A DNA stretch of 64,000 nucleotides from Stegostoma tigrinum (GCF_030684315.1 NC_081367.1:19202792-19266791); one strand, 5' to 3'. Counted from the first letter of the stretch, positions 2,808 to 40,866 are shown. Numbers and translations: made by a program. Notes: generated by a model not told the origin, from the sequence alone.

Positions 2808-2939
2808 TCCCGTAACATGTTCATCATTGAAACAGTACCACTCTATTTCCTGAATATTCCTTATATAAGCATAATAATGGCCAAAGGATGCAATATCCTG
2901 ATGAACAATCACAGAGATGAGTTCGTATTGTGGGATATT
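2808..2939 (-). CDS. USP18: USP18-like protease, His-box exon (NIPQYELISVIVHQDIASFGHYYAYIRNIQEIEWYCFNDEHVTG)
   Basis: ttgcag acceptor, gtaagt donor, 132 nt, phase 0/0. Carries the catalytic GHY and the FND motif. Confidence 0.95.
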
Positions 2940-3336
2940 CTGCAATGGGTAAAGCAAATTATTTAGTAACAATAGATGTATAACACATTTAACATTTAAA
3001 AAATGATCCAAGCTACAGAAGGCATAAGTAAGAGTGATGCTGATTCAGGGTAGGGGAATTGAGAAAGAGCAATCAAAGTTGAAAAATTGTTTCCTTTTAA
3101 CATTGGAGAGAACAAAAATGGCAAGATTGAGTTCTCTCCCAAAATTACTCAATCAAAAGAGTTGCCTTCAATCATGGGAAAATATGTAAGGCTAGATCAG
3201 AGAAACTGCATTCAGAAAAACAGGAAGAGATTGCAGAGTACGAGGAGACTAGGGCATCAGGCAATTTATGAATGACTTAAAAAATTTCAATTTATTACAT
3301 TGGAGAAAGGGGGCACTAGTTTAGATGAACAAGACT

Positions 3337-3775
3337 AGGATGGTAGATTTGTGGGATTCAGAATGGAAGTGGATTTATGGGGCCAGGGTTTTGTATAATC
3401 TAGAAATATAGTGGGTGAGAAAAGCCTCTCCACTGCATCTTGGCGGCAGCCACCCCAAGCTTTAGTGTGTCCCTCAGCACATAATCCTGGATCTTGGAGT
3501 GCACCAGTCCGTGACATTCTGTTGATGTCAATCTTTGCACTGGAATACCAATTATTTTTGGGCAGACTTTCACTGAGTTGATTATTCTCTGGATGTAGTT
3601 GATGATTTTCTTGGGAACAGGGAACAGCCCATAGAGCACAGAGTCCTGTGTCACAGAGCAGCTCAGGATGGATCTTGATAATAACTACTGTCTCACTCCT
3701 TAAGCCTTCTTTGAATTGGAGCTGTGTAACAATCTCTTCCCCACCACAGTCATCTCGAGGGTAGTAAGCGTGAAG
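3337..3775 (-). mobile_element. L1/Tx1-clade LINE, ORF2 C-terminal fragment
   Basis: RIINSVK...ECHGLVHSKIQDYVLRDTLKLGVAAAKMQW resembles the recalled C-terminus of fish/shark Tx1-type ORF2. Confidence 0.65.
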
Positions 3776-3784
3776 GATATGAAA

Positions 3785-5525
3785 GATAATGGTCCGAGAA
3801 GTAGTTGATGCATTGGTGATCATCTTTCAAGATTCTATAGAGTCTGGAACAGTTCCTGTACATTGACTGGTAGCGAATGTAACCCTAATGCTTTAAAAAA
3901 ATGGGAGGTATAGAGAAAACAGAATTGTTGACTGTTAGCCCAACGTTGATGGTCGATACAATGCTAAAGTCGATTACAAAAGATTAACCAGCAGAGCACA
4001 TGGAAAACAGTGACAAAATCGGACAGAGTCAGCACAGATTTACAAAAGGAAAATCATGCTTGACAAATCTGGAATTTTTCAAGCATGTGAAGTTTATAAG
4101 ACCAATAGATGTAGTTTACTTAGACTTCCAGAAGGTTTTGATAAGGTCCCACATAAAAGATTAGCTTGTAAAATTAAAGCGCATGGGATTGGGGGTACTG
4201 TACTGACATGGATAGAGAACTGGTTGACATACAGGAAACAAACAGTAGAAATAAATGGGGCTTAAGTAGCAGGTAGTGACTAGTGGGGGTACAGCAGGAA
4301 TTATACTTAGACCCCAACTATTTACAATATAAATAATTTAGATGAGGGAACTAAATGTAACATCTCCAAATTTGCAGATCGCACAAAACTGGATGGAAGG
4401 CAGAACTGTGAGGGTGATGCTAAGATGCTTCAGTGTGATTTGGGCAAGTTGAATGAGTGGGTGAATGCATAGCAGATGATGTCCAGTGAAATATAGGAAC
4501 AAAAACAAAGTTGCTGGAAAATCTCAGCAGCACTGTAAGCATCTGTGAAGAAAAAAACAGACTTAACGTTTCGGATCCAGTGACCCTTCCTCAGAATGGG
4601 TTCTGGGGAAGGGGCAACTGACCCGAAATGTTAACTCTGTTTTCTCCTTCACAGATGCTGCCAGACCTGCTGAGCTTTTCCAGCAACTTTGTTTTTGTTC
4701 CTGATTTACAGCATCCTGTAGTTCTTTCAGTCTTTATACAGTGAAATATAGTGTGGATGAATGTGAACTTGTATACTTTGATAGCAAAAACAGGCAGGCA
4801 GATTACCTGAATGATAATTGACGGGAAAGGGGGAGGTGCAACAAGACCTTGGTATCCTGTACACCATTCACTGAAAGTAAGCATGACGGTGGGGTAGGTG
4901 ATGAAAAAGGCATATGGTATGCCAGGCCTCATAGCGTGTAGATTCAAGCACAAGAGAAGGGATGTTTGCTGCAATTATACGTAGCCTTAGTGAGACCATA
5001 CTTGGGTACTGCGTGCAGTTTTTTTCTCCTTATCTGAGAAAGGATGTTTTGGCTATGGAGGAAGTGTAACAAAGGTTTCCCAGACAGATTCCTGGGATGG
5101 CAGGACTGAGGTATCAAAAAAGGTTGGATTGGTGAGGACGATATTCTCTAGAGTTTCGAACTATGAAGTGAACCTCATGGAATCCCATGAAATTCTAACA
5201 GGGCAAGAGGGGGTAACACAAGAAAGATGCTACCAATGATCAGGGGGTGCAGAATCAGGTTCACAGACTTAGGAAATGGGCTAAAACATTAAGGGCTGAG
5301 ATGAGGAGATATGATTTTACCCAGACAGTGGTGAGCCTGTGGAATTGAACTTCTAAGGAAATAGTTGACACTAAAATGCCGAGTGTTTTCAAGAAGAAGT
5401 TAGATATTAGGGTTAAAGGCATTAAAGGGTATAGGAGAAAGCAGGAACAGAGTGGTGAGTTAGATGATCAGCCACGAGTAGACTCAAATGTCGTCGTGGC
5501 CTACTTCTGCTCCTATTTTCTATGT
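3785..5525 (+). mobile_element. CR1 LINE RT and 3' end, interrupted by a mini-Penelope
   Basis: FDKVPHKRLACKIKAHGIGGTVLTWIENWL and KFAD-like motifs; the 3' tail ends in ctcctattttctatgtttct. Confidence 0.85.
4497..4738. mobile_element. Palindromic mini-element built from inverted Penelope-like termini
   Basis: Arms aaagttgctggaaaatctcagcag and ctgctgagcttttccagcaacttt; 13-bp TSD cagtgaaatatag at 4484-4496 and 4739-4751. Confidence 0.75.
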
Positions 5526-5569
5526 TTCTTTGGTTGCTTCTTATCCAACAGAGAGCCCTCTAGAGGTAA

Positions 5570-5992
5570 CAAAGTGTGGAGCTGGATGAACACCGCAGGC
5601 CAAGCAGCATCTCAGGAGCACAAAAGCTGACGTTTCGGGCCTAGACCCTTCATCAGAGAGGGGGATGAGGAGAGGGTTCTGAAATAAATAGGGAGAGAGG
5701 GGGAGGCAGACCGAAGATGGAGAGAAAAGAAGATAGGTGGAGAGGAGAGTATAGGTGGGGAGGTAGGGAGGGATAGGTCAGTCTAGGGAGGACGGACAGG
5801 TCCAGGAGGCGGGATGAGGTTAGTAGGTAGGAAATGGAGGTGCCGCTTGAGGTGGGAGGAGGGGATAGGTGAGAGGAAGAACAGGTTAGGGAGGCGGGGA
5901 CAAGCTGGGCTGGTTTTGGGATGCAGTGGGCGAAGGAGAGATTTTGAAGCTTGCGAAGTCCACATTGATACCATTGAGCTGCAGGGCTCCCA
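5570..5992 (-). mobile_element. Penelope-like element, 5'-truncated 3' end
   Basis: Colinear with the 3' part of the GIY-YIG element at 17552-19149; 16-bp direct repeat agccctctagaggtaa at 5554-5569 and 5993-6008. Confidence 0.85.
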
Positions 5993-6481
5993 AGCCCTCT
6001 AGAGGTAATGGTCACTCCTGCGGCTACGTCACTATAGTTCGAAGGTGATCTTCCTCCTGATTACTGCGGCCTGCTTAACTGACTGTTTAAATTAAACTTA
6101 GTGTGTTTTTTTAGGGTGAGTCATTCATTTTTCATTTAGCAGCAGCAATGATGACAGCCTATAATGGTGGCTTTGTCAAGGCTGCAATGTTTCTGGCTGC
6201 TTAACTATGTTGGCAGCACTGGCAAGTAAGATATCGCTCTCGTTCACTTGCCGTTCATGGTGACAGCCTTTAACTAGGCCAGAACTGGTAAAATGCCACC
6301 CTAGGCTCCTGACAATGGCCTGTGCTGGGTTTGACCCAGATTGTGGTCCCGGCGACAGAGCTTCTCAACTTGAGAAAAGTCAGCCCTTTGTCAATGTTTG
6401 AATAGGTTGAAATGGAAGGTCAGTCACTGTGATCTGGAGAATGGAAAAATTCACACACTGCCTGCATGCCTAAAAACACAC

Positions 6482-6640
6482 CTTGAGGTTAGGAAATTCT
6501 TTTTTGCAATTCTCCGAGTTGATGCTTTCTGGAAATTCCATATAATTATTGTTTTTGACCACTTTCCTCAAGCTTGCAGCAAAGCCAAAGTGTTTTAGCT
6601 GTAGACATAGTATTTGTGGCCAAGAACGCACTCTGTAGCC
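6482..6640 (-). CDS. USP18: USP18-like protease exon (GYRVRSWPQILCLQLKHFGF...MEFPESIN...NLK)
   Basis: ttcaacag acceptor, AAG|gtgtgt donor, 159 nt, phase 0/0. Contains the USP PxxLxxxLKRF-type box and the FP motif. Confidence 0.9.
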
Positions 6641-7239
6641 CTGTTGAAGAGAAAACAATTGTCAGAAAAGAAGCATTTAAAATAATTTTCATACTAGACT
6701 AAGCATTACTGAAATTAAAAGAAAGCCAAAAAACACCAAGTCTAGTTGTAAGTTGTATCCTACATCACTGGGAAGCTAGTGGTATAATGGCAATGGTACT
6801 GGACCAAGCTAACATTCCGGAGACATGGGTTCAATTGTCATCTTGGCAGCTGGCGAAATAGGATTTCGATAGAAAATGGTGAATCGTAAAAACAAGCCTA
6901 ATGCTGACTGTATAATCACTACTGATTGTCACAAAATCAGGTCTGGTTCACTCATGTCTTTTACGGAAGAAAAATCTGCCTTCCCTACCCAGTCTGGTCT
7001 ACATGTATTTTCAGATCCTCAGCAATATGGTTGACTCTTAGCTGCTCTCTTGAGCAGTTAGGGATGGGCTATAAATGATGACCATCAATAAATGATGGCT
7101 ATAAATAAATGATGTATGCTCACATCCCAAAAAAGATTTTTTAAATTACTTTTCAAATACAGAAATGGCAAATGCCATACTGACTGTTTGACATAAATCT
7201 AAATTGAAATATTCATCTATTTCTTAAGTCAGTACTTAC

Positions 7240-7335
7240 ATGTTGTGTCGTTGTCTTTTCTCCACATTGGTCACAATAGCATTTGTTATCACCATCTAAA
7301 TTTTGTGATTGAAAGAAGCCATTCAGGGAATTCAT
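7240..7335 (-). CDS. USP18: USP18-like protease, zinc-ribbon exon (MNSLNGFFQSQNLDGDNKCYCDQCGEKTTTQH)
   Basis: actag acceptor, gtaagt donor, 96 nt, phase 0/0. CYCDQCGEKT matches recalled USP18 CFCENCGKKT. Too short for the ORF track. Confidence 0.92.
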
Positions 7336-7669
7336 CTAGTTAAACATAAATGTTTTCAATGTTAAACCAGCAAAAAAAATCTGGTTTACATATTCTGGAC
7401 AGGGACATTAATGCAATCTAACTTTAAACATATTATGGATAGAAGAGACAATTTGTCAAATTATCAAACATAATTTATATTTCAAAGTGAATTATTCCCA
7501 GATACTGTTGATTCCATGGCCAGTTTCACAATAGTTATGATATTGGGCACTTTGATAGTTATGCCTACAAACATCTAACATTATAGATCAAAAACTCTAT
7601 TTGTTGGAGAAAAAAGTACTTTTTTCACCCCATACACTTGTTTAGTGATTTGGTGATGCTAGGTATTAA

Positions 7670-8890
7670 GACCATAAGATACTACAGCGGAATTAGGTCA
7701 TTCAGCCCATCAAGTCTGTTCTGTCATTTGATCACGGCTAATTATGTTTCTCAACTCCATTTTTTTTACCTTCTCCCTGTAACCTTTGATCACCATAGGT
7801 GATCAAGAACCTATCTGTCACTGTCTGAAATACACACAGTGACTTGGCCTCCATAGCCTTCTGTGGAAACGAGTTCTATGGATTGATTAACCTTTGGCTG
7901 AAGAAATTATTACACATCTCAGTTCTGAAGCTCGTGCAATCTCTGAGGCTGTGCCCTCAGGTCCTAGCCTGCCTGGCTAGTGAAAACATCTTCACGACCA
8001 CTCTATCTAGGCCTCACAGTGTTCTGCACATTTCAATGAAATACCCCGTCATGTTACTAAAGCCCATCAAGTACAGACCCAGAGTCCTCAAATGACAAGC
8101 CCATCATCCCTTGTGACCAGACTTGTAAATCTCCTCTGGGCCCCCTCTGTGGCCAGCAATTCCTTCTTTAGACATGGCACCCAAAAACTGCTCACAATAT
8201 TTTCAAATGCAGTCTGAGCACACCTTTATACAGCCTCAGCAGTACATCCTGTTCTTGTATTCTAGCCCTCTTGAAATAAATGCTAACGTTGCATTTCCTT
8301 TCCCAACTGCCACTGAACTTGCTTGTTAACCTTAAGATAATCCTGAACTAGAAGTCTTTAAGTCACTTTGTGCTTCAGATTTCTGAAGACATTCCACATT
8401 TAGAAAATAGTCCATGGCTCTATTTTCATACCAAAGTACATAGCTCATACTTTCCCACATTGTATTTTGTCCAGTACTTCTTTGCCAGCTCTCTAGCCCA
8501 TCCAAGTCCTTATGTAGACTCCCACCTCCTCAAAACTACCTGTCTTTCTACTTGACTTTGTGTCAACAGCAAAATTAGCAACGATGCCCGCAGTTGCTTC
8601 ATCCATATTGTTAATGTATAACATGAATAGCTATGGTTCCAAAACTGAACCCTGTGGAACTCCACCAGTCAGATTGCCAACCTGAAAAAAGGCCCTTTCA
8701 TTCCCACTATCTGCACTTTGTCAATCAACCAATACTCTAACCATGCCAGTATCCTGTCCTGACATGGGCCCTTACCTTTATTTAACAGCCTCCTGTGTGG
8801 CACTTTATCAAAAGCCTCTGGGAATCTAAATAAGTCATGTCTATTGGCTATCCTTGATATAACTCACTCGTTAGCTCCTCAAAGAATTTC
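7670..8890 (-). mobile_element. CR1 LINE RT and 3' fragment
   Basis: accataagat...ggtcattcagcccatc is a CR1 3' tail; gaaccctgtggaactcc is the reverse complement of GVPQGS. Confidence 0.8.
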
Positions 8891-9189
8891 AACATAATTA
8901 CGTGAATAAAGTTTAATAAATAGAGTATGACATATGAAAACATGAAATTGTTTATTTTGGTAGCTTGAATAAAAAAGAAGCATATTACATAAATGATGAG
9001 AGATTGCAATGCTCTGAGATACAGAAATCTACCACGTTAAAAATATTCACAGACCCTTCTTTAATTGCACTTTCAGGAAACAAATTGCAAAGACTCAGAA
9101 ATTTCTGTTTGGAAAATTATGCCATGTTGCATGAATCACAAAAGGGTATTACGCAGGTAAAGTAAGTAATTAGGATCACAAAATCCCTA

Positions 9190-9495
9190 AAGTGTGGAGA
9201 AAGGCCATTCGGCCAATCAAGTCTGCAGTGACCTCCAAGGGGCATCCCAACCAGCCCCATCCCTTCGCCCTATCCTCACATTTCCCATGGCTAATCCACC
9301 TGCACATCCCTAGAGACTATGCAGCAATTTTGTTTTTTAGCATGGTGAATCCTCCGAATCAGCACATCTTTGGATTGTGAGAGGAAATTCACACAGACAT
9401 GGGGAGAATGTGCAAAGTCCACACAGTCACCCGAGGATGGAATCGAACCCAATACTCTGTCATTGTGAGGCAGCAGTGCTAGTCACTGGACCATA
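9190..9495 (-). mobile_element. HE1-like V-SINE inserted in a CR1 3' fragment
   Basis: tgtgaggcagcagtgcta and ggaatcgaaccc are the reverse complements of the A/B-box head; cacacagacatggggagaatgtgcaaa is the core. Confidence 0.75.
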
Positions 9496-9984
9496 TTGTC
9501 ATTAGAATCCGTACAGTGTGGAAAGAGGCCATTTGGCCCATTGAGACAGTACCTATTAGGAGTGCTAATAAAATGTTATAATTTGTGGTTAAGGGAATTG
9601 AATACAGAAGGAGGTTATGTTTCAGTTAAACAGAACACTGGTAAGACCAGATCTAAAGAACTTTGCACAGTATTGGTCACCCTACTGAGAGAAGGATGTA
9701 AGTGCATTGGAAACAGTTCAAAGGCTATTTATCAGATTAATACTTGGAATGGATGGATTGTCTAATATGGAAAGGTTTGACAGGCTAGGTTTGTAGCTGC
9801 TGGAGCTTAGAAAAGCAAGTGGCAACTTGACTGAAAAACAAAAGATCCAGATAAGTCTTTTCAGGGTGAATATGGAGAGGATGTTTCCTCTTAAAGGAGA
9901 CCCTAAAACTAGGATTCATGGTTTAAAAATAAATTCTTTAAATTTAGTTGTTTGCCCATTTAAAATGAAAATGAGGCATAATTT

Positions 9985-12430: not shown

Positions 12431-13793
12431 AATGTTTTGTAAAACATCTTCTGGAAGTCCAAGTGTAACACATCTACTGGTTCCTTTCTATTCTTTCTGG
12501 TTCAGATTTCCTTGAAAATCTTTAATAAGTTGGCTAGCCACAATTTCCCTTTCATGGAGCTTTGCCCACTCCACTTGATTAAGCTATAATTTTCCAAATG
12601 TACTGCTATTACTTCATTAATAATTGGTTCCAATATTTTTTCAACAATAGATGTTAGACTAATTGATTGATGGTCTCCCTCCATTTATGAATGCGTGTTC
12701 ACTATCTACAAGGCAAAATTCTTAGGTGTGATGGGACACTTCCCTGGAAGGTTACAACTCCAACAACACTCAAGAAGTCTAACATCATCAAGGACGAAGC
12801 AACCTGCTGGATGGTCACTTCAAGCACCACCTTAATACTTCCCTCCTTTTAATGCCAATGCACAGTGGTAGTGGTGTGCAACATCACCGAGGATCCTTCG
12901 ACAACTTCTTCCAAATCTGCAACATCTACCACTTTTAAAGACAAGGGAAGCAGACACGTGAGAACATCATTACCTGCAAGTTTCTCTCCAAGCTACTCAA
13001 CATTCACATTTGGAGCTATGTTGTTATTTCTTCACTATCGCTGCATCATCATTCGGAACTCCCTTACAAACAGCAGTGTGGACAAACCTATACTCCAAGA
13101 ATTGCAACAGTTCAAAAAGACAACTCACTATCACTTTCTTGAGGGCATTTAATAATGAGCAATAAATACTGGCCCAGCAGGCAAAATCCACATCACATGA
13201 CCAAATAATAAAATAAAACTTCAAACACAAAAATTTTTAAGTTCCTAAATTAATATTGAATACATGCTGTCTACAGGCACACTGTAGGATAGCCATCAAT
13301 GAATCTTATACCTGTCTAGATTAATAAAAACTCAGCAACAAGCTATTTCCTTGCTTTGTTTTAATTTTCAATATCAATCAGTAAGGAGAAAGGGTTCACA
13401 TTCTGAGATATTGGTTCTTTCCTAACACTTATATAATGATGTGATTGGCATTAGATGGTTTAGCTTTGCAGAAAGTATGCATAAGTTTACTTAAGCTTGT
13501 GTAAATATTGATTTTGTGATCAACAAACAGATTACAGAACTAATTGAAACCTTTAGCTAAATTCAATTATTAATCATTTCTGCTAAACTGTGTCATGTTG
13601 CCTGGGTATTGAAAAATTTCCTAGAATTGTCAAAGTTATGGGAAATTGTGCTAACTAAAATGACTTTCAAGATTGAAATTTAGAATTAGGTTCAATATCC
13701 AAACATCAGATCAAACATGAAAGGACAAATCCACATCTGACTCCTAGAATATTTCAAGTTTAATCAAAATGAGTTTTAAAATGTTACACTTAC

Positions 13794-13943
13794 TACATTC
13801 TGATAACATTTCTCCGATGAAGGCTCATAAAGTGAAAGAGGAATAGTGAGCATGTGTCCAAACTGCTGGAATTCATTTTGGCATTTTAAACATTTTCTAT
13901 ATTCCTCAGTGGTTAGCACATGCAAATCCTCAACAAATCTGTT
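13794..13943 (-). CDS. USP18: USP18-like protease exon (NRFVEDLHVLTTEEYRKCLKCQNEFQQFGHMLTIPLSLYEPSSEKCYQNV)
   Basis: ttctgcag acceptor, gtaagt donor, 150 nt, phase 0/0. CxxC and MLTIPLSL match recalled USP18 CVDC...MLTLPLSL. Confidence 0.93.
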
Positions 13944-15599: not shown

Positions 15600-15679
15600 A
15601 AACATGGTCTTCTTCAACTGGTCTTGTAATAAATTACAGAGTGAACGGAAAAGTTCCTCAGCATCCGATTGACTCCCCA
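15600..15679 (-). CDS. USP18: USP18-like protease, QxDA exon ((V)GSQSDAEELFRSLCNLLQDQLKKTMF)
   Basis: tttaag acceptor, gtaagt donor, 80 nt, phase 1 in and 0 out. QSDA...NLLQDQL matches recalled USP18 QHDA...NLIKDQI. Confidence 0.92.
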
Positions 15680-16259: not shown

Positions 16260-16405
16260 CATTAATTTGGTTTAACACCAAGCACTGAATAAATTTATCA
16301 GGCGATACAATACTCTTAGTTTTGTTGTGCAGGTGCTGAAATACTTTGCCAAGGTGATATAGAATGTCGTTATTGGCTTTTATCAGAAGGTCTTTCTGTT
16401 GGCAA
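16260..16405 (-). CDS. USP18: USP18-like protease exon (CQQKDLLIKANNDILYHLGKVFQHLHNKTKSIVSPDKFIQCLVLNQIN)
   Basis: ttacag acceptor, G|gtaggt donor, 146 nt, phase 2 in and 1 out; joins both neighbouring exons in frame. Confidence 0.88.
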
Positions 16406-17551: not shown

Positions 17552-19149
17552 CAGAGATAATGGGAACTGCAGATGCTGGAGAATTCCAAGATAATAAAAT
17601 GTGAGGCTGGATGAACACAGCAGGCCAAGCAGCATCTCGGGAGCACAAAAGCTGACGTTTCGGGCCTAGACCCTTCATCAGAGAGGGGGATGGGGAGAGG
17701 GAACTGGAATAAATAGGGAGAGAGGGGGAGGCGGACCGAAGATGGAGAGTAAAGAAGATAGGTGGAGAGGAGAGTATAGGTGGGGAGGTAGGGAGGGGAT
17801 AGGTGAGTCCAGGGAAGACGGACAGGTCAAGGAGGTGGGATGAGGTTAGTAGGTAGATGAGGGTGCGGCTTGGGGTGGGAGGAAGGGATAGGTGAGAGGA
17901 AGAGCCGGTTAGGGAGGCAGAGACAGGTTGGACTGGTTTTGGGATGCAGTGGGTGGGGGGGAAGAGCTGGGCTGGTTATGTGGTGCTGTGGGGGGAGGGG
18001 ATGAACTGGGCTGGTTTAGGGATGCAGTAGGGGAAGGGGAGATTTTGAAACTGGTGAAGTCCACATTGATACCATGAGGCTGCAGGGTTCCCAGGCGGAA
18101 TATGAGTTGCTGTTCCTGCAACTTTCGGGTGGCATCATTGTGGCAGTGCAGGAGGCCCATGATGGACATGTCATCTAGAGAATGGGAGGGGGAGTGGAAA
18201 TGGTTTGCGACTGGGAGGTGCAGTTGTTTGTTGCGAACTGAGCGGAGGTGTTCTGCAAAGCGGTCTCCAAGCCTCCGCTTGGTTTCCCCAATGTAGAGGA
18301 AGCCACACCGGGTACAGTGGATGCAGTATACCACATTGGCAGATGTGCAGGTGAACCTCTGCTTAATGTGGAATGTCATCTTGGGGCCTGGGATAGGGGT
18401 GAGGGAGGAGGTGTGGGGGCAAGTGTAGCATTTCCTGCGGTTGCAGGGGAAGGTGCTGGGTGTGGTGGGGTTGGAGGGCAGTGTGGAGCGAACAAGGGAG
18501 TCACGGAGAGAGTGGTCTCTCCGGAAAGCAGACAGGGGTGGGGATGGAAAAATGTCTTGGGTGGTGGGGTCGGATTGTAAATGGCGAAAGTGTCGGAGGA
18601 TGATGCGTTGTATCCGGAGGTTGGTAGGGTGGTGTGTGAGAACGAGGGGGATCCTCTTAGGGCGGTTGTGGCGGGGGCGGGGTGTGAGGGATGTGTTGCG
18701 GGAAATACGGGAGACGCAATCAAGGGCGTTCTCGATCACTGTGGGGGGAAAGTTGCGGTCCTTGAAGAACTTGGACATCTGGGATGTGCGGGAGTGGAAT
18801 GTCTTATCGTGGGAGCAGATGCGGCGGAGGCGGAGGAATTGAGAATAGGGAATGGAATTTTTGCAGGAGGGTGGGTGGGAGGAGGCGTATTCTAGGTAGC
18901 TGTGGGAGTCGGTGGGCTTGAAATGGACATCAGTTACAAGCTGGTTGCCTGAGATGGAGACTGAGAGGTCCAGGAAGGTGAGGGTTGCGCTGGAGATGGC
19001 CCAGGTGAACTGAAGGTTGGGGTGGAAGGTGTTGGTGAAGTGGATGAACTGTTCGAGCTCCTCTGGGGAGCAAGAGGCGGCGCCGATACAGTAATCAATG
19101 TACCGGAGGAAGAAGTGGGGTTTGGGCCTGTGTAGGTGCGGAAGAGGGA
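17552..19149 (-). mobile_element. Penelope-like retroelement (RT C-terminus and GIY-YIG), left arm of an inverted dimer
   Basis: ORF 17909-19171 has RYID, FLDL, KPTDSHSYLEY and VVYCIHC...LYIGETKRRLGDRFAEH (GIY-YIG). 15-bp TSD cacaatcccatgtgt at 17537-17551. Confidence 0.93.
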
Positions 19150-19150
19150 A

Positions 19151-20568
19151 GAGCTCGAACAGTTCATCCACTTCACCAACACCTTCCTGGACCTCTCAGT
19201 CTCCATCTCAGGCAACCAGCTTGTAACTGATGTCCATTTCAAGCCCACCGACTCTCACAGCTACCTAGAATACACCTCCTCCCAACCACCCTCCTGCAAA
19301 AATTCCATTCCCTATTCTCAATTCCTCCGCCTCCGTCGCATCTGCTCCCACGATAAGACATTCCACTCCCGCACATCCCAGATGTCCAAGTTCTTCAAGG
19401 ACCGCAACTTTCCCCCCACAGTGATCGAGAACGCCCTTGACCGCGTCTCCCGTATTTCCCGCAACACATCCCTCACACCCCACCCCCGCCACAACCGCCC
19501 TAAGAGGATCCCCCTCGTTCTCACACACCACCCTACCAACCTCCGGATACAACGCATCATCCTCCGACACTTTCGCCATTTACAATCCGACCCCACCACC
19601 CAAGACATTTTTCCATCCCCACCCCTGTCTGCTTTCCGGAGAGACCACTCTCTCCGTGACTCCCTTGTTCGCTCCACACTGCCCTCCAACCCCACCACAC
19701 CCAGCACCTTCCCCTGCAACCGCAGGAAATGCTACACTTGCCCCCACACCTCCTCCCTCACCCCTATCCCAGGCCCCAAGATGACATTCCACATTAAGCA
19801 GAGGTTCACCTGCACATCTGCCAATGTGGTACACTGCATCCACTGTACCCGGTGTGGCTTCCTCTACATTGGGGAAACCAAGCGGAGGCTTGGAGACCGC
19901 TTTGCAGAACACCTCCGCTCAGTTCGCAACAAACAACTGCACCTCCCAGTCGCAAACCATTTCCACTCCCCCTCCCATTCTCTAGATGACATGTCCATCA
20001 TGGGCCTCCTGCACTGCCACAATGATGCCACCTGTAGGTTGCAGGAACAGCAACTCATATTCCGCCTGGGAACCCTGCAGCCTAATGGTATCAATGTGGA
20101 CTTCACCAGTTTCAAAATCTCCCCTTCCCCTACTGCATCCCTAAACCAGCCCAGTTCGTCCCCTCCCCCCACTGCACCACACAACCAGCCCAGCTCTTCC
20201 CCCCCACCCACTGCATCCCAAAATCAGTCCAACCTGTCTCTGCCTCCCTAACCGGTTCTTCCTCTCACCCATCCCTTCCTCCCACCCCAAGCCGCACCCC
20301 CATCTACCTACTAACCTCATTCCACCTCCTTGACCTGTCCGTCTTCCCTGGACTGACCTATCCCCTCCCTACCTCCCCACCTACACTCTCTCCACCTATC
20401 TTCTTTACTCTCCATCTTCGGTCCGCCTCCCCCTCTCTCCCTATTTATTCCAGTTCCCTCTCCCCATCCCCCTCTCTGATGAAGTGTCTAGGCCCGAAAC
20501 GTCAGCTTTTGTGCTCCTGAGATGCTGCTTGGCCTGCTGTGTTCATCCAGCCTCACATTTTATTATCT
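19151..20568 (+). mobile_element. Penelope-like retroelement, right arm of an inverted dimer
   Basis: ORF 19136-20251 is near-identical to the left arm apart from a 51-nt deletion; matching TSD at 20569-20583. Confidence 0.93.
20472..20506 (+). ncRNA. Minimal hammerhead-ribozyme-like motif in the Penelope terminus (representative copy)
   Basis: CTGATGA-A-stem II-GAAAC-GTC layout. An intact version (ctgatgaagggtctaggcccgaaacgtc) is on the minus strand at 5626-5660 and 17651-17685. Stems I and III are very short. Confidence 0.55.
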
Positions 20569-21239
20569 CACAATCCCATGTGTGACTATTTGTAGGAACC
20601 TGCCAGTAGATGGCACTGCTACCTAACAACTGACAAAACTGCAGCATGTAGTCTCAGTTGGCAACCACCTTATCATCAATCTCCATTTCAGAAACTAAGT
20701 CATCAACACACTTTGCAAGTAACACACAATCGACCGTGAAATCAGTAAAACATCCCAACTGATAAATGGAATGTACCCTGACTCCATTTACCTACCTTTG
20801 TTTTGAATCCCTTGATATTCTAATTTAAACAACTGTTTAATAATATCAATCTTGAAGACCTCACTAGACTCTATTTTTTGGGGGGTGTTTAAAATTTCCA
20901 GTAGCTTCTGTGTAAGAAAAAACAATATTTCTTCCTGATTTTAAGATTTAATCCCTGAAATGTCCTACCAAATAAATAGTTTTCTGAATCAGCTTCCAAA
21001 GACCTCAGTTTGATCTCTTCTCCAACATCTCAACATAAATAAACAGAAGCCAAATTCATGCAACTTATCTTCATGACTTAACCTCCTAAATTGTGGTATC
21101 TTGCTGATAAAAGCATGTGTAACCCACTGTAAGGCCACTGTATATTTAAAAATATCTATGAAAAGCCCTGTGCCTCTGTTACATTAATCACTGTGAAGGC
21201 TATCTCTGATCAATACTTTACATCATTCTCCACCCACAA

Positions 21240-22700
21240 CTCTTTCCCCATACCAACCCTACACTTTTTTTCCATCTTAATCCTGTTCCCAATAAACTGC
21301 TGATCACCTAACTTTGCCTCCCTCATGTTAGCTGACGTTGTCAAATCTTTTAAATCTAACCCTGTTACCTCTTCCAAAAATTCAACTATCCTTGCAAATT
21401 ACAGTCCCATCTCCAACCTCCTCTTGCTCTTCATAGTCATTGAAGGTGTTGACACCTCCCAAATCCATTCCAGACTTCCGTGGAACTTTGAATCTCTGCA
21501 AAGTGTCCTTTCCTCCTCCCACAGTACCTCTTATCAAAGTCACAGCTAAAATCCACTGTAATTGGCAAAGTTTCTGTCCTTCTGTGCCTGTTTGCAGCCT
21601 TTAACACAGGTGACCACTCCAACCTCCTCGAATGCCTCTCCTTTGCTGTCCATGGTATGACTTCTCTGATCTCGTTACCGATCTAACAATATCCAGAGAA
21701 TCTCCGCATTCGCATCTGTAGTGCCTCCCAAGGACATATCCTTGGCCTCTTTCAATTTCTAATTACTCCTCTGAGCAATAGCTTTGAGTTAGCTTTTAAA
21801 TGTACAATGGCAACAAACACTGTTGTTAAATTATCAGACTGCTTGTCCAATATCCAGGCTCAGATGAGCGGAAATTTCCCGCAATTAAATAATGCAAAGG
21901 CTTATGATTATTTTCAGTCCCCACTCTTAAACTCCATTCCCCAGCTAACTCGTTACATTTTTCACAATCGCAATTGTCTGAGGTGAAGCCAGCTTTTTTG
22001 GAACCTTAGTGTCACATTTGATCCTGAGATGAGATTTCAACCTGGTATGCCATTGGTAAGACCACCTATTTCTGTCTATGAACATCAACTGACTTGTTCG
22101 TGTGCCAGTTCATGGTGAAACTCTCGTACCAACCTTCATCACTTCAAGACTTGACTATTCCAACAGATCCCTAGTCAGTGTTTACATTCTACCTACATAA
22201 AGCTACGATAATCCAAAACTCTGCTGCCTGTGTCTCAACTGGTAGCAAATTCCATTCCAATATCACTCCTACATTTGTTGATATACTGGCACTCAGTCGA
22301 GCAATATCTGGATTTAAAATTCTCATCTTTGGGTACAAATCACTTCATGGTCTCAACCCTCTCTCCGTCTCTGCAATCTCTTCCAGTTTGATAATCCTCC
22401 AAGGATCCTATGCTGATCTAAATCTGAGCTGTTGTCCATTCCTGCCTTTTGGTGCTTTACCATCAGATTCATCCTTTCAGTGGCTGTGGCTCTGGGACTC
22501 CTGAAGATCTGAAAATTCTCCCCTAAACTTCTCTGTTTCTCAACTTCACTCCCCACCTTTAGATTACTTCTGAAAACTTCATTCTTTGACCATACTTTTG
22601 GTTATCTGCCTTAATATCTCCATGTGTGGCTGACTTTGATACGTTATTTTACAACACTTCCAAGATGTTTAATTGTGTTGAATGCACTCTATAAACATAA
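21240..22700 (+). mobile_element. Old L2-clade LINE fragment
   Basis: Decayed L2 ORF2 motifs NYSPISNL, SRLDYSN (tcaagacttgactattccaac), IQNSAA and FKILI. Confidence 0.7.
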
Positions 22701-24444
22701 ATTTTTGTTGTATCCACCCTTTGAAGAACTCCCTCTCAATTAATTTACAATTACTCACTTACCAATACATTTTCAAAATCCTAACAATAGAAACATACAA
22801 AATGGGAGTGTGACTTGGATAGAGCATTTGAATAGAATATCCTTTATTGTCTCTTTTACTACAATACAGAAGTATAGGACTACAGTGAAAAGTTTTTTCA
22901 AGGCTGCCTTTTAATAGCGCCATCTCAGGAGCAAGTACCTCAGTACAAATCTTACAGGGTACAAAAAGTATATTAGTCTTGCACAAAGAAGATTAAAGAA
23001 AAGCATGGGTATTACTTACAGAGGTAGTTACAACATAGTGGAAAGGTTTTAAATTACAGTCCAATGCAGAAGCTTGAACACGCGTATCAGTAAGTCCAGG
23101 AACAGCTTCTTCCCAGCCGTTATTAAACTGATGAATGGAGTCCTGAACTTCAAATAATGCTGATCTTGCTAATGTTGATCTCACCTAGCGCACGCCATGT
23201 GCAATATAACATATATGCCTCTGACCAATTGCCTTCTACACTATGATCTGTATGATCTTGCTCGCTATGATCAGTATGTGGCACCAGGCCCGAGTCCAGC
23301 AATTATCCTGCATTGCTCCAGCCTCCAGTCCGCTCCTCATCGGGACTCAGTAGCAACTAGGTAAGTCGTACTGTACTGGGATTCAAACCGCAGCCACCGC
23401 CACACCCCACACCCCCACTCCTCCTGCGCCCCCCGCCCCCCCACCCGCCACCACTGGTCCGGGGACCTGGTCCCTCTGGCACCACCTCGGGTTGCCTACT
23501 CCCACCAGTTTGTGCTCATCGCCTGTGTGATGCTCCAGGGCTCTTCCACATGCTGCTCTCTGGGGCTCACAACCCATGTGCTGCTGCAGGGCTCGCTGCT
23601 CACTGTGTTCCAGGGCACGAGGGCTCACTGCTCTGGGCTTGCTGCATTGGCTTCGCTGCTGAGGGCAGAGAAGAAAATAGAAGGAAAATGGGGAAAAGGA
23701 GGAAAAAGAACAGGCTCCTACTTTGTTGCCAGGAGAAATCTTAAGAGGCTATTCAGCCCTTCAGCATGTTCTGCCAATCATATGATCATGGATTGCTCAT
23801 CCAACTCAGTATGCTGTTTCTGCTTTTTCTCAATTTGGTGTGATGCATTTAATCATTAGAACTGGATCCTCCTCTTCCTTGAAAACATTTAATGTTTTGG
23901 CTTCAACCACTTTCTGTGGCAGAAAATTCCACAGGTCACCTCTGTCTGGATGAAGCAATTTCTCCTCATCTTAGTCAGAAAAGGCTTATCCCATAAACCA
24001 TGACTCCTGAGACGCTGCTTGGCCTGCTGTGTTCATCCAGCTACACACTTTGTTATGTTGGATTCTCCAGCATCTGCAGTTCCCATTATCTCTGACCCCT
24101 GGTTCTGGACTCTTTGGTCATTGGGAACATCCTTCTTGCATTTACACTGTCTAGCCCTATCATAAGTTTACAAATTTCCATGAAAATCCCCCTCATTCCT
24201 CTGAACTCCAGTAAATATTGTCCTAACTGATCAAGTCTCTCTTCGTACATCAGGTCTGCTAGCCCAGCAATCAATCTGGTAAACCATCCATAATTCTATA
24301 ATTTCCTGTTTTCTTTCTACCTCTTTTTTTAATTTATAGGGTTACGTTAGCTACCCTTCAATCCAAAGTCTGTAGGCCATCTACAGAAAGCTGACCACCA
24401 AAACATCCAGCATTTCCAGGGCCACTTCATTAACTACTCTTGGG

Positions 24445-25750
24445 TTTAGATTTGATTTGATTTATTTTTTGTCACGTGTGCCTAAGTATAGTGAAAAGCT
24501 TTGTTTACGAGCAGTACAGGCAGATCATAGTGAGCAAGATCATTCAGATCATAGGGTACAGGGCAATTAATCAGAGGTGTCCAGATTATATCGTATATGG
24601 CCTGCGCTAAGCAAGATCAACATTAGCAAGATCAGCATTATTTGAAGGTCGGGACTCCATTCATCAGTTTAATAACAGCTGGGAAGAAGCTGTTCTTGGA
24701 CCTGCTGGTACGTGTGTTCAAGCTTCTGTATCTTCTGAAGGAAGAGGTTATAGGACAGCATTACTAGTAATGGATCTTTCACGATGTTGGCAGCCTTTCT
24801 GTGGCAGTGAGCTAGTGTAAATTGTGTCCGTGGATGGAAGGTTGGCTTCCGTGATGGTCTGGGCTGCGCACACCACCTTCTGTAGTTTCTTCCGGTCCTG
24901 GGCAGAGCAGTCGTCATGCCAGGCTGTTATATACTTTAATGGTGTGCTTGCAATGGTGCATCAGTAGAAGTTGGTGAAGGACCTTATGAACATGCCAAAT
25001 TTGCCAAGCCGCCTGAGGAAGAAGAGGCATTGTTGTACCTTGTTGACTGTCTTACCTATGTGGCAAGTCCAAGTTGTCAGTTATCGTCATTGCTAGGAAC
25101 TTGATGCTCTTCACCCTCACAACCTTGGTTTGGTTGATGGAGGCGTGTTCTCCTCCTTTCTTTCTGAAGTCAGTGATCAGTTCTTTAGTTTTGCTGATGT
25201 CGAGAGAGAGGTTGTTCTCACTGCATCACATCATCAAGCCTGCTGTGTCCTTTCTGTATTCTGACTCGACATTATTAGATGTCCGTTCTACCACAGTGGT
25301 GTCATCAGCAAACTTATAAATGGTGTTTGTTTGGAATTTGGAAACACAGTTGTGGGTGTACAGGGAGTACAGTAGGAGGCTGAGGACTAATCCTTGGTGG
25401 GGGGGGGGGGCTCCTGTGTTGGGTGTTATTGTGGAGGAGGTGCAGTTGTCCATCTTCACTTATTGCAGTTCGTGGGTCAGAAAGCTGAGGTACTGGTTGC
25501 AAAGGTTGGAGCCAAGACCAAGGTCTCAGAGTTTTGTGATTAGTCTGGAGGGCAAGTGGTGTTGAAGACAGAGCTGTACTCGACTTGCACAAGTCTGGCA
25601 TAGGTGTCCTTGTTGTCCAGGTGTTCCAGGGATAAGTGAAGGGCTAGGGAAAAGGCCTCTGCTGTGCATCAGTAGGCAAATTGTAGGGGATTGAGGCAGG
25701 CTGGGAGACAAGGGTTGATGTGGGCAATGGCCAGCCTCTCGAAACATTTC
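24445..25750 (-). mobile_element. Rex1/Babar-like LINE RT and 3' end
   Basis: NTGAP.QG.VLS.LLYSLYTHNC...KFADDTTVV. A related 3' end lies on the plus strand at about 23070-23270. Confidence 0.75.
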
Positions 25751-28700
25751 ATGATTATCAGTTCGTGGAGATTTTTCAGCCTTTAGTTTCATCAATTTTC
25801 CCAACACCAATTCCTTACTAATACTGATACCTTCAGTTCCTCACTCTCGCTAAACTCTCCATTCCCAAACATTTTTGGGACATTATTTGTGTCCTTCTTT
25901 AAGAAGACAAAACCAAAACATCTATTTAATTGGTCTGCCATTGTAATCCATTATAACTTGCCCTGTCTCTGACTGTAAGGGACTTATATTTGTCTTCACT
26001 GATCCTTTTCTCTTCACATAACAATTGAAGTTTTTACAATCAGTTAGTATATTCCCCATAAGCTGACTCTCATATTCTATTGTTCCTGTCTTAGTAAATC
26101 CTCTTATCCTTCTTTGCTCAAATCTCAACTGCTGCCAATCCTCAGGTTTGCTGATTTTTTTGGCCAAGTTGGATGTTCCTTCTTGGATTTAAAACTATCC
26201 CGAGTTTCCCTAGCTAGCCATGGTCAAGCTATGTTTTCAGTTTTATTTTTGTGTCAGGCAGGGATAAATAATTAAGGCAGTTGCTCCATGCACTTTTTAA
26301 ATGCTTGCTACTGCTTATGCATCATTATGTCTTTTTTCCAAAGTAACATTTTATCATAGTTATCTCTCGCTTCCTAACATCATTGTTTCCTTTATTTAGA
26401 TTCAGGACCCTAGTCTTAGAATCAACTGCATCACGCCCGTTTAAGAGAAAAGATTCTGTTTTATTATGGCCAGTCTTCTTCCAAGTGGCCTTGCATTACT
26501 AGATTGCTAATTATTCCTTTCTTGTTGCACAGTACCAAGTATAGGATGACCTCTTCTCTGGTTGGTTCTTCAACAGATTGATCTGGAAAAACCATTAAGT
26601 ACACACGTTAAACCAGATAACATCTGTTCGTCACTTTACTTCAACATCTCTGCAGCTACTAATTTGTCAAACTTCAGCGTAATTTCCATCTTTTGATGCT
26701 CTACTCCCCATTCAAATTATTGTAACTATTCAATGCAGCTTTGCTCACTGAAGACTTCCAACATGAATGGATGTGGCTGTTTGCTGTTCACTGCCACAAC
26801 TTGCTGAACACACAAAGCACTATTGCATTAAGTTTTTGTTCGTTAGAAGTGCTCATTATTCCAGTTTTTGTCCTGGAATGAAAAAATAACCTCTGGCTTC
26901 TTCTCTCTACAATAACCCATCTTCTTGAAACCTTCTCCCATCTACTCTACATTCACTTCCATCAAAATGTGCAAGGAATTCATAGATATATTTATCACTA
27001 GAAGTGAATCCATACAATCTACAGCATTTATTGTTTTTCCCTTCTTCACCAGCCCACCAAAGCTAAATTTCATTAAAGCTCCCTGTGATTTAGCCCTGAA
27101 TTCAAATAGTTTCTTAAAATTTGTTTATTTCCTATTCTCTCTGAGTTCATATCGTCTTTGAAACACACAACTTGTTCCTTTGATTTGTTCCAACTAACCC
27201 TCTGACTGCTCAACATCCCCTTCTGTCGGCCTTTTCTGTAAATTAATCTTTCTTCAGATGCTGTCCTTCTCTCTTTTAAACATAATGTCATCTTTCCTCT
27301 TCTGGAAAACCAATCCTTTATGAAATCCTTGCAAACTACCATTCCAAATCTTTTACTCTTCCCCAATTTGTACCCTTGTTTCCTGAAATTTCATTTTTGA
27401 ATCCTTCTAAACAAGTTTCTGCCCCTGTCACTTACAGAAAGTACTTTCAAACTCTGCTCCTTAGCTACTGACTCCATCACTTTGCCTGGTAACTGCGTGA
27501 GGCTGATGTGTTCATACCTTTGGTGTCACATTTAACCCTGAAGTAAGCTTTTGTCCATATAACTGTGCCATCACGAAGGAGATAATTTATTTCCATCAAT
27601 ATGCCTTCACTGTATCTCAGCTCATCTGCATCTGAAATCATTGCTCATATCTATGTTCCTTCTAGACCCAACCATTCTGTGCACTCCAAACTAATCTTCT
27701 CCATTTTACCCTTTGCAGATTCAGGGTCATTCAAAACTTTGGCGCCCAAATCCTATTTTTATTCATTGATGGTCTATTGCCAGTGGCTGGGCCAGTATTT
27801 ATTATTCATCATTAATTGCCTTTGAGAAGGTGGTGATGAGCAGGAATTTCCTCCAATTAAATTCTTCTTGAACTGCTTAAGTTCATTTGGTGTAAATAGA
27901 ACAACAATACTGTTAGGGAGGGAGGTCCAAGATTTTGACCCAACAACAGTGAATAAACTATGATTTGTTCACCACATAACTGCTGCTCTTGTCCTTCTAA
28001 ATGATAGCAGTAACGGGTTTTTGAACATGTTTTCAAAAGTTGCTGTTGCCTATGCACCACCATGTCTTTCCTCCAAAGTAAAATTCGCAATTTATCATAG
28101 ATTTTTCATGCTTCCTAAAATTTATAATTCGCAGCTAGTCCTGTTCACCCATCACTCCTCTGCTCATTAACTACACTAGGTTATTTTAAATACTCCTGCT
28201 TAGTCTCAATTACCTTCATGCCCTCCCTCCTCCACATCTCTGAAATTTCCTCCAGTCCCACAACCCTATGACATATCCCTAAACGTGGCCTATTTTAATT
28301 GTTCCAGCTGCCAAGGTCCTAAGTTATGAAATTTACACTCTTAATCTCTCATTTATCTTTCATTTTTTAAGATACTCCTTGTTAAACCACTTTGATTGAC
28401 CATTTGATTATCTGCCCAATATCTCCTTATGTAATCCAGTATCAGTGTTCTGTTATAATGTCTATGTGAAACCCTTTGAAACACCATTCTAGTAATTAAA
28501 AGTTTTGGTCGTCTGAACTAAAATCTCCTTATGTTTGCTGCTGTTACATTTTAATGTACATATTATGTATATATTATATATATAATGCTTCTGTCTTGAG
28601 ATGTTTCAGTATGTTAAAAACACTGTATAAATATAAATTATTGCTGTGTTTCATTGTTGTCAACTGAATCCAATATCTGCATGCATTCTGACTGAAAGTT

Positions 28701-28962
28701 CTACATAACTGAAGCATGGTTTCCTCATTAAGCCAAAATTCAATCTGGTTACCTCTGAATGAGTTACATAGGAATCAATAAAAAGAGCCATCAGTTAGGC
28801 GAAGGTAGAAATGTTTGACCATGTGTAAAATATGAAAAAGGCGTTTCTTGAGTAACGTAAATTTTGCAAAATCTGCTAAAAGAAAAATTGAGTGATATAA
28901 AAATAATCTTACTTAGTTATAAATCTGAATAATGTAAGTAAATCAGCAAAACTAGAACTTAC

Positions 28963-29059
28963 TTTGAAAGTAGACAGCTATATTCTGGAATCATAAACAA
29001 GGTTTGCAGAAGGGCATTTACACAACAGTTGTTGCTTGTATTGGCGAGTCTCACAAATA
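28963..29059 (-). CDS. USP18: USP18-like protease, Cys-box exon ((I)FVRLANTSNNCCVNALLQTLFMIPEYSCLLS)
   Basis: ttttcatag acceptor, gtaagt donor, 97 nt, phase 1 in and 2 out. The CC doublet is like recalled USP18 TCCLNSLIQ. Exon sizes 97/146/80/150/96/159/132/62 closely follow my recollection of human USP18 (97/146/80/147/96/168/132/50). Confidence 0.95.
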
Positions 29060-40854: not shown

Positions 40855-40866
40855 GAAAGCGAAACT
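40855..40866 (-). promoter_or_regulatory. ISRE upstream of the USP18-like gene
   Basis: GAAAGCGAAACT, which reads AGTTTCGCTTTC(TC) on the minus strand; exact ISRE consensus AGTTTCNNTTTC in a CpG-rich region. Confidence 0.75.

What the first reader, a model, noticed from the sequence alone, without database searches (positions are those of the whole stretch)
2808..29059. USP18-architecture enzyme lacking the ISG15-specificity residues, with an altered catalytic cleft
Exon sizes and phases and the CC Cys-box point to the USP18 family, and the catalytic Cys, His and Asn plus both CxxC pairs are intact. At the ISG15-binding patch (recalled as mouse A138, L142, H251) this protein reads E, R, Q (QSDAEELFR; LCLQL), like USP7-type ubiquitin enzymes. 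Normally conserved cleft residues also differ: GLxNxG becomes RLANTS, LKRF becomes LKHF, and HxG becomes HQD. These positions lie near the channel that binds the modifier C-terminus. Inference: co-adaptation to the R42-retaining, LRLPGG-ending neighbour. It may be a paralog rather than the true USP18 ortholog.
Basis: partly seen in the sequence, partly recalled or inferred. Interest (0 to 1): 0.72.

Follow-up and report, generated by a model that had tools for sequence, protein, structure and literature searches.

The report
Second USP18 in shark ubiquitin-like cluster
This shark gene is an intact second copy of the interferon enzyme USP18 that faces a small ubiquitin-like tag gene and lies near a ligase and another protease, and together they likely form an immune protein-tagging system separate from ISG15.

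Summary
The residues are there as described. The gene is an intact 11-exon, 453-aa USP18 paralog ('USP18B'), not the ortholog: true USP18 lies on C22 beside PEX26 and keeps the ISG15-box Ala/Leu/His, and ISG15 is on C34. USP18B forms its own clade (99/97) across sharks, rays and chimaera. Its E/R/Q are shared by almost all orthologs and resemble USP47, so they look retained rather than lost. The cleft changes (G136R, R339H, G390D) exceed background but occur only in carpet sharks, whereas the neighbour's PGG end is invariant in all 8 orthologs. The larger result is the surroundings: USP18B is head-to-head with the PGG-ending UBL, both carry IRF elements near their start codons, and an ARIT-type RBR ligase and a third USP follow within about 130 kb. 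Salmon ARIT and 'USP18-like' are also about 160 kb apart and interferon/virus-induced. Best reading: an interferon-driven UBL-E3-protease module in which USP18B likely trims or removes the PGG tag. No activity, binding or expression was shown here.

The parts
40538..40792 (-). USP18B exon 1 (ATG; low-confidence, probably disordered N-terminus)
   Evidence: pLDDT <50 for residues 1-130
32204..32345 (-). USP18B exon 2 (142 nt)
28963..29059 (-). USP18B exon 3 (97 nt): Cys box RLANTSNNCC; G136R; oxyanion Asn139; catalytic Cys144
16260..16405 (-). USP18B exon 4 (146 nt)
15600..15679 (-). USP18B exon 5 (80 nt): QSDAEELFR; E and R at the mouse A138 and L142 sites
13794..13943 (-). USP18B exon 6 (150 nt): first CxxC
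7240..7335 (-). USP18B exon 7 (96 nt): second CxxC
6482..6640 (-). USP18B exon 8 (159 nt): LCLQLKHF; Q at the mouse H251 site; R339H
2808..2939 (-). USP18B exon 9 (132 nt): HQD (G390D), catalytic His396, Asn413/Asp414
2024..2085 (-). USP18B exon 10 (62 nt). The last exon (SGIAYLLFYKRMD-stop) lies outside the window at L024:6990-7032, minus strand
40856..40866 (+). IRF-E/ISRE-type element 64 bp upstream of the USP18B start codon
44017..44027 (+). IRF-E-type element about 100 bp upstream of UBL copy 1
44120..45037 (+). PGG-UBL copy 1: exons 44120-44264 and 44865-45037; 105 aa; single ubiquitin fold ending LRLPGG plus a 16-aa tail; head-to-head with USP18B
   Evidence: orthologs
52819..52829 (+). 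IRF-E-type element of UBL copy 2 (copy of 44017)
52922..53839 (+). PGG-UBL copy 2: exons 52922-53066 and 53667-53839; one coding difference (I17L)
42347..59990 (.). 8.8-kb tandem duplication (42347-51148 / 51149-59990, 99.7% identical) carrying the UBL. The rest of the cluster lies beyond the window's right end: partial CY-box USP (L027:6635-L028:6640, +), ARIT-type RBR E3 (L029:8990-L030:5973, +), CY-box USP (L032:3330-L035:6959, -)
   Evidence: contig depth consistent with the duplication but not decisive; outside genes:

Best explanation
The window gene is an intact USP18 paralog (USP18B) of cartilaginous fishes that sits head-to-head with a PGG-ending ubiquitin-like gene, and it likely acts, under predicted interferon control, as a protease that trims the tag's short tail and removes the tag from proteins. 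Shown: gene structure, paralogy, intact catalytic residues and predicted fold, linkage, IRF elements, a neighbouring ARIT-type RBR ligase and a second USP. Inferred: IRF/ISGF3 induces the cluster; a cluster USP cuts after LRLPGG; an E1/E2 and ARIT attach the tag to targets; USP18B and/or the CY-box USP remove it. USP18B probably also reacts with ubiquitin, as fish USP18 does. The clearest clade-wide cleft feature that could suit Pro74 is Leu/Met at the x of QxD (12 of 14; Ser here). The G136R/R339H/G390D changes are later and specific to carpet sharks. They most likely reflect loosened constraint on a partly redundant enzyme (the CY-box USP keeps a canonical cleft), leaving it active but altered or weaker.
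For: Paralogy: C22 USP18 has 9 open exons with DAAELFL, LHLNRF and ETAYML, 37 kb from PEX26; the tree of 48 rows gives A 100/97, B 99/97, CY 100/99. The UBL always has residues after GG (2-3 in 8 of 8 orthologs, 16 here), so it needs a protease. IRF-E: 3 matches in the window vs 0.21 expected, 0 of 100 shuffles reached 3, all within about 100 bp of these start codons. ARIT and the CY-box USP lie in the same cluster; in salmon ARIT (chr7:24.02 Mb) and USP18-like (chr7:23.86 Mb) are neighbours and both are induced by virus and IFN-gamma (PMC12234341 supplement and passages). Catalytic Cys/His/Asp are kept in the carpet-shark sequences seen. The AlphaFold core has pLDDT >=90 over 262 residues; best fold match is USP18-ISG15 5CHV, TM 0.92.
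Against: No activity, conjugation or expression of these genes was shown. USP18B was not found among the bony-fish, lungfish or amniote rows retrieved, whereas ARIT and the CY clade span teleosts and tetrapods, so the CY-box USP is at least as good a candidate for the UBL's protease. E/R/Q cannot tell ubiquitin, shark ISG15 and the PGG-UBL apart, since all three keep R42. The Leu of QxD also appears in the partial CY copy and is Ser in this very protein. The three cleft changes hit positions conserved across the family and may have inactivated the enzyme. The IRF pattern was written after the sites had been seen, and 2 of the 3 hits are duplicates. No strict IRF-E was found at ARIT. A tree in which USP18B arose by duplication within cartilaginous fish was not rejected (AU p = 0.053). 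No extra E1 was found (2 loci, a lower bound). Whether teleosts and tetrapods have the UBL was not tested; the Atlas clusters are a lead only.
Confidence: 0.45

Rival explanations
1. USP18B is an interferon-induced deubiquitinase or ubiquitin/ISG15 cross-reactive protease that kept the ancestral USP47-type surface. It neighbours the UBL because of co-regulation, and the UBL is handled by the CY-box USP or by housekeeping DUBs.
For: E/R/Q resemble USP47's Q/R/Q. Fish USP18 with a polar IBB-1 reacts with ubiquitin and ISG15 probes (PMC6240716). Shark ISG15 has the ubiquitin-like R42/Q49. The CY clade's range fits ARIT better.
Against: Close linkage appears kept in another shark and a ray by RefSeq order. 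Clade-wide Leu/Met at the x of QxD (12 of 14; 0 of 16 clade A, 0 of 8 USP47 rows) and a variable third triad residue (N 6, R 3, M 3, D 2 of 14) suggest a remodelled tail channel.
Confidence: 0.27
2. In carpet sharks USP18B has become a weak or dead protease that is kept as a scaffold, for example for USP18-type negative feedback on interferon signalling.
For: 5-6 of 38 family-conserved columns are changed only in carpet sharks, without a general rate increase. R339 corresponds to USP7 R408 (LxRF motif, my mapping), which lines the ubiquitin-tail pocket (PMC6188144, passages). USP18 has protease-independent roles (PMC6240716). The whale-shark and one bamboo-shark RefSeq models are partial.
Against: Cys144, His396, Asp414 and Asn139 are retained in the zebra-shark, whale-shark and epaulette-shark sequences; the reading frame and splice sites are intact. 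STAT2/IFNAR2 binding surfaces were not tested.
Confidence: 0.2
3. One reading: RLANTS, LKHF and HQD are the adaptations that let the enzyme accept the LRLPGG end.
For: The changed positions lie in the Cys box, the LxRF strand and blocking loop 2, near the tail channel (the loop assignment is from my own knowledge).
Against: The PGG end is identical in species with and without these changes; residues 71-76 of the UBL do not covary with them.
Confidence: 0.06
4. It is the sole, syntenic USP18 ortholog of this shark.
For: RefSeq names (USP18-like; one skate record 'USP18'); best PDB and fold hits are USP18.
Against: A PEX26-linked USP18 with A/L/H and 9 open exons exists on C22 and groups with bony-vertebrate USP18 at 100/97.
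Confidence: 0.02

Closest known systems
USP18 (UBP43), the ISG15 protease (PDB 5CHV, 9ZFO)
   Same: Exons 3, 4, 5, 7, 9 of 97/146/80/96/132 nt matched by the C22 USP18 at 97/143/80/96/132; CC Cys box; single USP domain; AYLL C-terminal motif; sister clade (A+B node 100/99); fold TM 0.92.
   Different: Separate clade and chromosome; not PEX26-linked; E/R/Q instead of A/L/H; 130-aa low-confidence N-terminus; SGIAYLL instead of ETAYLL; linked to a PGG-UBL, ARIT and another USP.
Teleost USP18 (polar IBB-1, ubiquitin/ISG15 cross-reactive)
   Same: Acidic residue at the A138 site (D/E in 8 of 16 clade A rows); partner ISG15 with Arg/Gln.
   Different: Teleost USP18 belongs to clade A, which mostly keeps Leu and His at the 142 and 251 sites (14 of 16 and 13 of 17 rows); it is not the ortholog of this gene.
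USP47 and the teleost/tetrapod 'USP18-like (USP47-like)' clade of Grimholt et al. 2025 (PMC12234341)
   Same: R and Q at the 142 and 251 sites in USP47 and in the shark CY gene; that shark gene is in the same cluster, as is ARIT, and the two are neighbours in salmon.
   Different: That clade has the CY box and branches outside A+B; the window gene is a third lineage. The passages and supplement parts 2-4 that I read do not mention it, the PGG-UBL, or the linkage.
ISG15 conjugation system (ISG15-UBA7-UBE2L6-HERC5/ARIH1-USP18)
   Same: Predicted interferon-induced UBL precursor with a C-terminal tail, an E3 and USP-fold proteases.
   Different: Single UBL domain with a 6-residue insert and Pro at position 74 (33 of 76 identical to ubiquitin, 31 of 78 to the ISG15 C-domain); genes clustered; conjugation not shown; ISG15 itself is present separately.
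USP41 (hominine USP18 duplicate)
   Same: A USP18 paralog without apparent activity on ISG15 (10.1101/2024.05.28.596309, passages).
   Different: USP41 is recent and keeps IBB-1; USP18B predates the shark-chimaera split and keeps its C-terminal AYLL exon.

Membership tests
USP (peptidase C19) family | Cys box, His box, acidic residue(s) after His, UCH domain and USP fold | tested here: met
   PF00443 E 1.2e-42 over 136-449; C144/H396/N413/D414; fold match
USP (peptidase C19) family | Isopeptidase activity | not testable with these tools
   Needs an enzyme assay; three conserved cleft positions are changed
USP18 subfamily (A+B clade) | Groups with USP18 to the exclusion of USP47 and the CY clade; CC box; shared exon plan | tested here: met
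   A+B+caecilian node 100/99; exons
USP18 orthologs | Falls inside the clade of bony-vertebrate USP18 | tested here: not met
   Clade A (100/97) holds the C22 gene and excludes it; a chondrichthyan-only duplication is not rejected, AU p = 0.053
USP18 orthologs | PEX26-linked locus (human arrangement recalled, from no call) | tested here: not met
   PEX26 is on C22, 37 kb from the other USP18
USP18 orthologs | Hydrophobic IBB-1 (A138, L142, S192/P, H251) | tested here: not met
   E/R/P/Q
USP18 orthologs | Mouse L195/human L198 and ETAYLL 'TAIL' motif | tested here: inconclusive
   Leu kept (PLSL); tail reads GIAYLL here, TAYLL in most orthologs
USP18 orthologs | deISGylase activity; STAT2/IFNAR2 binding | not testable with these tools
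   No assay
Conjugatable ubiquitin-like modifiers (for the neighbour) | Ubiquitin fold with a conserved C-terminal di-glycine | tested here: met
   PF00240 on ortholog P0017; LRLPGG in 8 of 8 orthologs
Conjugatable ubiquitin-like modifiers (for the neighbour) | E1 activation and covalent attachment to proteins | not testable with these tools
   E1 search found 2 loci, a lower bound; no biochemical data
ARIT RBR ligases (for the downstream gene) | RING1-IBR-RING2 only, ARIT sequence motifs, no transmembrane tail | tested here: met
   IBR hit below Pfam's cut-off, Atlas IBR clusters 0.96, motifs matching the printed ARIT alignment by eye; no tree was built
Interferon-stimulated genes | Induction by interferon | tested here: inconclusive
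   IRF-E sites at the starts; induction known only for salmon ARIT, USP18 and USP18-like

The most novel reading that the evidence does not exclude
Jawed vertebrates have a second interferon-driven ubiquitin-like conjugation system beside ISG15, encoded as one cluster: a Pro-Gly-Gly mono-UBL, the ARIT RBR ligase as its E3, and one or two dedicated USPs. USP18B is the cartilaginous-fish protease for it and arose from the split that also gave the ISG15 protease USP18. ARIT reaches monkeys but not hominoids (PMC12234341), so humans may have lost the pathway recently.
Probability: 0.4. Interest if true: 0.85.

Novelty: new variant of a known kind. Interest (0 to 1): 0.62.

Why it matters
ISG15 is treated as the vertebrate interferon-induced ubiquitin-like modifier. 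A clustered UBL, E3 and protease set would add a second one with directly testable parts, give the strongly induced orphan ligase ARIT a candidate modifier other than ISG15, and show how one USP47-derived enzyme split into proteases for different tags. It also corrects annotation: shark records named USP18, USP18-like, USP47 or 'polyubiquitin' mix several USP lineages and a distinct UBL. The carpet-shark cleft changes alone are of modest interest.

Tried and rejected
Expression: no RNA holder was listed (4 runs, one study, kind not on record); this is no evidence either way. Splice joints of USP18B were not checked with reads. Duplication: depths of listed contigs inside it were 13-19.4 vs 10.1-11.4 outside (X2) and 6.4-11.1 vs 4.9-5.3 (X1), but the tool warns that this is no copy number, the junction contig has only 30 letters on one side, and the runs may be the assembly's own source. 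Complex prediction was not run: a USP-UBL pair would pass by likeness to solved USP-ubiquitin structures and the controls do not include ubiquitin. Viral contigs: 0 of 69 pattern matches encoded a UBL relative. Flanking genes for wider synteny: Pfam scans of 149, 145 and 91 sequences (about 330 of 415 filtered ORFs outside the window, 50 inside) gave only USP, IBR, a ZCCHC3-like ORF and weak hits, so the paralogon of C17 was not identified; ALG10 is on C33. The genome-wide IBR search missed this RBR, so such counts are lower bounds. The Fisher test of cleft departures (p 1.7e-6) is inflated because the carpet-shark rows share ancestry. The first tree (59 rows) had a wrong frame in one CY exon; it was fixed and 11 rows were dropped (P0109, P0147, P0034, P0132, P0116, P0126, P0173, P0029, P0016, P0067, P0110); the three clades were the same. 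Caecilian P0036 has B-like ELDAEELLR but is unplaced (16% SH-aLRT with B; with amniote USP18 AU p = 0.043). Literature: nine searches bearing on novelty (listings only unless cited) found no description of this paralog or of the PGG-UBL; one search was for USP7 residues. The library lacks most subscription papers; Basters 2017 was not held and Chen 2015 was not read. Earlier scan findings: none.


Full report
1. Observation. The full gene has 11 exons, from ATG 40792 to a last exon about 3 kb before the window; all introns are GT-AG and the product is identical to RefSeq model P0024 (XP_048398497.1, zebra shark, 453 aa). Cys144, His396, Asn413/Asp414, Asn139 and both CxxC pairs are intact. The AlphaFold model is confident over the USP domain (262 residues at pLDDT >=90; residues 1-130 below 50) and matches USP18-ISG15 best (5CHV, TM 0.92, rmsd 2.2); this says nothing about activity. 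IBB-1 is A138/L142/S192/H251 (bioRxiv 10.1101/2024.05.28.596309, passages), which maps to E/R/P/Q here.

2. It is a paralog. A genome search with exon 9 gave 13 matches. One, on C22, is a USP18 with 9 open exons (3-11), DAAELFL, LHLNRF and ETAYML, 37 kb downstream of PEX26 (the human PEX26-USP18 linkage is recalled). Two ISG15 copies ending LRLRGG-SL are on C34. In a 48-row tree rooted on USP47, clade A (100/97) holds the C22 gene, a second shark and a chimaera gene, lungfish, bichir, eel, reptiles, a rodent and further unnamed rows. Clade B (99/97) holds the window gene, 12 other elasmobranch proteins and a chimaera protein. Clade CY (100/99) holds a third shark gene and teleost and turtle proteins. 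B therefore predates the shark-chimaera split. The tree implies that it also predates the split from bony vertebrates, but a duplication within cartilaginous fish is not rejected (AU p = 0.053). A caecilian protein with B-like residues is unplaced.

3. The ISG15-box residues look ancestral. E, R and Q occur in 14, 13 and 13 of 14 B rows; USP47 has Q/R/Q in 8 of 8; clade A has Leu at the 142 site in 14 of 16 and His at the 251 site in 13 of 17. The simplest reading is that A gained the ISG15 pocket and B kept the ubiquitin-type surface. That surface cannot single out the PGG-UBL, because ubiquitin, shark ISG15 and the UBL all keep R42. Fish USP18 with a polar box reacts with both ubiquitin and ISG15 probes (review PMC6240716, passages).

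4. The cleft changes are real but recent. Of 38 columns conserved outside clade B, this protein departs at 5 (G136R, T156I, R339H, L362I, G390D) and Hemiscyllium at 6; the other 12 B rows depart at 6 in total, at similar overall divergence. The whale shark shares R136, H339 and D390. The PGG end, however, is invariant in 8 of 8 UBL orthologs, including white shark and manta ray, whose USP18B has a canonical cleft. These changes are therefore not what lets the clade handle Pro74. Clade-wide features are better candidates: Leu/Met at the x of QxD (12 of 14; by my mapping the site corresponds to USP7 H294, listed with R408 in the tail pocket in PMC6188144, passages) and a variable third triad residue with an invariant next Asp, a pattern compatible with activity as in USP1, USP15, USP40 and USP48 (PMC10867860, abstract). 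Against this, the x is Ser in this protein and Leu also occurs in a partial CY copy.

5. The neighbourhood. The UBL gene starts 3.3 kb away on the opposite strand (44120), has two exons and encodes 105 aa: one ubiquitin fold (33 of 76 identical to ubiquitin) with a 6-residue insert, LRLPGG and a 16-aa tail (2-3 aa in orthologs; probably a lost stop codon, inferred). It is duplicated in an 8.8-kb tandem block and was found nowhere else in the genome. An IRF element lies 64 bp upstream of USP18B and about 100 bp upstream of each UBL copy (3 found, 0.21 expected; pattern chosen after seeing the sites). Beyond the window (distances counted from the window start) follow a partial CY-type USP without a detected His-box exon (90-101 kb), an RBR ligase with four open exons read from script output (113-120 kb) and the CY-clade USP (137-171 kb; 0 of 34 conserved columns changed). 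The two USPs have IRF-E-like sites 5.7 and 6.7 kb upstream of exon 3, among 11 matches of a looser pattern in 264 kb, which is weak. The RBR matches ARIT by eye (PMC12234341 supplement). In salmon, ARIT.1 (chr7:24.02 Mb) and USP18-like (chr7:23.86 Mb) are about 160 kb apart, while USP18a is 22 Mb away; all are induced by virus and IFN-gamma (passages and supplement parts 2-4). The authors ask whether ARIT is an ISG15 ligase; what I read does not note the linkage. That the salmon USP18-like gene belongs to my CY clade is inferred from their description; its sequence was not in my tree.

6. Mechanism. Most likely (0.45) the cluster is an interferon-induced tagging module: the UBL precursor is trimmed after GG, activated by an existing E1, attached by ARIT and removed by the cluster's USPs, with USP18B as one of them. 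Gene content, linkage and motifs are shown; induction, cleavage and conjugation are inferred. In carpet sharks the tail channel of USP18B has drifted, plausibly because the CY-box USP overlaps in function. Rivals: an ordinary ubiquitin/ISG15 cross-reactive enzyme that is merely co-regulated (0.27); a weak or dead scaffold in carpet sharks (0.2); cleft changes as the PGG adaptation (0.06); sole ortholog (0.02). The main weakness is that USP18B was not retrieved from teleosts or amniotes, where ARIT and the CY clade persist, and that the UBL's range outside cartilaginous fish was not tested (Atlas clusters of 117 and 70 chordate proteins, one auto-named after an ARI8 ligase, are a lead).

7. Novelty. 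It works like USP18 or USP47 (USP-fold protease), belongs to the USP18 subfamily, and is not a USP18 ortholog. Nine literature searches found no description of this paralog or of the PGG-UBL; PMC5381560 (passages) treats USP18 and USP47 as the ohnolog pair, and PMC10540217 and 10.1101/693333 (passages) added nothing on it. The library lacks most subscription papers and bioRxiv supplements. Verdict: new variant of a known kind; interest 0.62, carried by the cluster rather than by the three cleft substitutions.

Noticed in passing
G000:C22:558262-593985 (L044-L048): The shark USP18 ortholog keeps the mammal-type A/L/H pocket although shark ISG15 has the polar Arg/Gln patch instead of Trp/Pro; its two zinc-site pairs are altered (CQC and C-SNHV-C) and one intron has a GC donor.
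   Followed up: partly
window 44987-45037 and copy 53789-53839: UBL tail is 16 aa, against 2-3 aa in 8 orthologs; the third codon after GG is CAG where the whale-shark protein ends, suggesting a lost stop codon, present in both tandem copies.
   Followed up: partly
L016, L017 (C34:15733113 and 15753624): Two ISG15 copies 20 kb apart with identical 181-aa open frames, ending LRLRGG-SL.
   Followed up: no
P0036 (Geotrypetes, named USP40 by its source): Caecilian protein in the USP18 subfamily with B-like ELDAEELLR; may be a surviving bony-vertebrate USP18B.
   Followed up: partly
L027:6635-L028:6640 (+): Partial second CY-box USP copy (exons 3, 4, 5, 7, 8 found; no His-box exon found), probably a pseudogene.
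   Followed up: partly
L061-L064 (C58, C19): Four further RBR exons at 35-40% identity to the ARIT C-terminal exon elsewhere in the genome.
   Followed up: no
L030:5623-5970, Atlas rank 7: A cluster of 95 proteins of large DNA viruses (Nucleocytoviricota) scores 0.94 against the ARIT C-terminal exon; a lead only.
   Followed up: no
L026:4675-5505 (+): ZCCHC3-like ORF (two RNA-binding domains and zinc knuckles), probably ORF1 of a LINE element, between the UBL and the partial USP.
   Followed up: no
window 17589-20568: Inverted repeat with 1.39-kb arms at 98% identity and a 200-bp spacer in intron 3 of USP18B, made of repeat-element sequence.
   Followed up: no
P0031, P0034, P0144 and similar: Teleost CY-type proteins carry several tandem USP domains in one model (up to 10 matched stretches), suggesting arrays or fused gene models.
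   Followed up: no
L018, L021: Degenerate ubiquitin copies, probably retrocopies, one reading LRPRGG.
   Followed up: no
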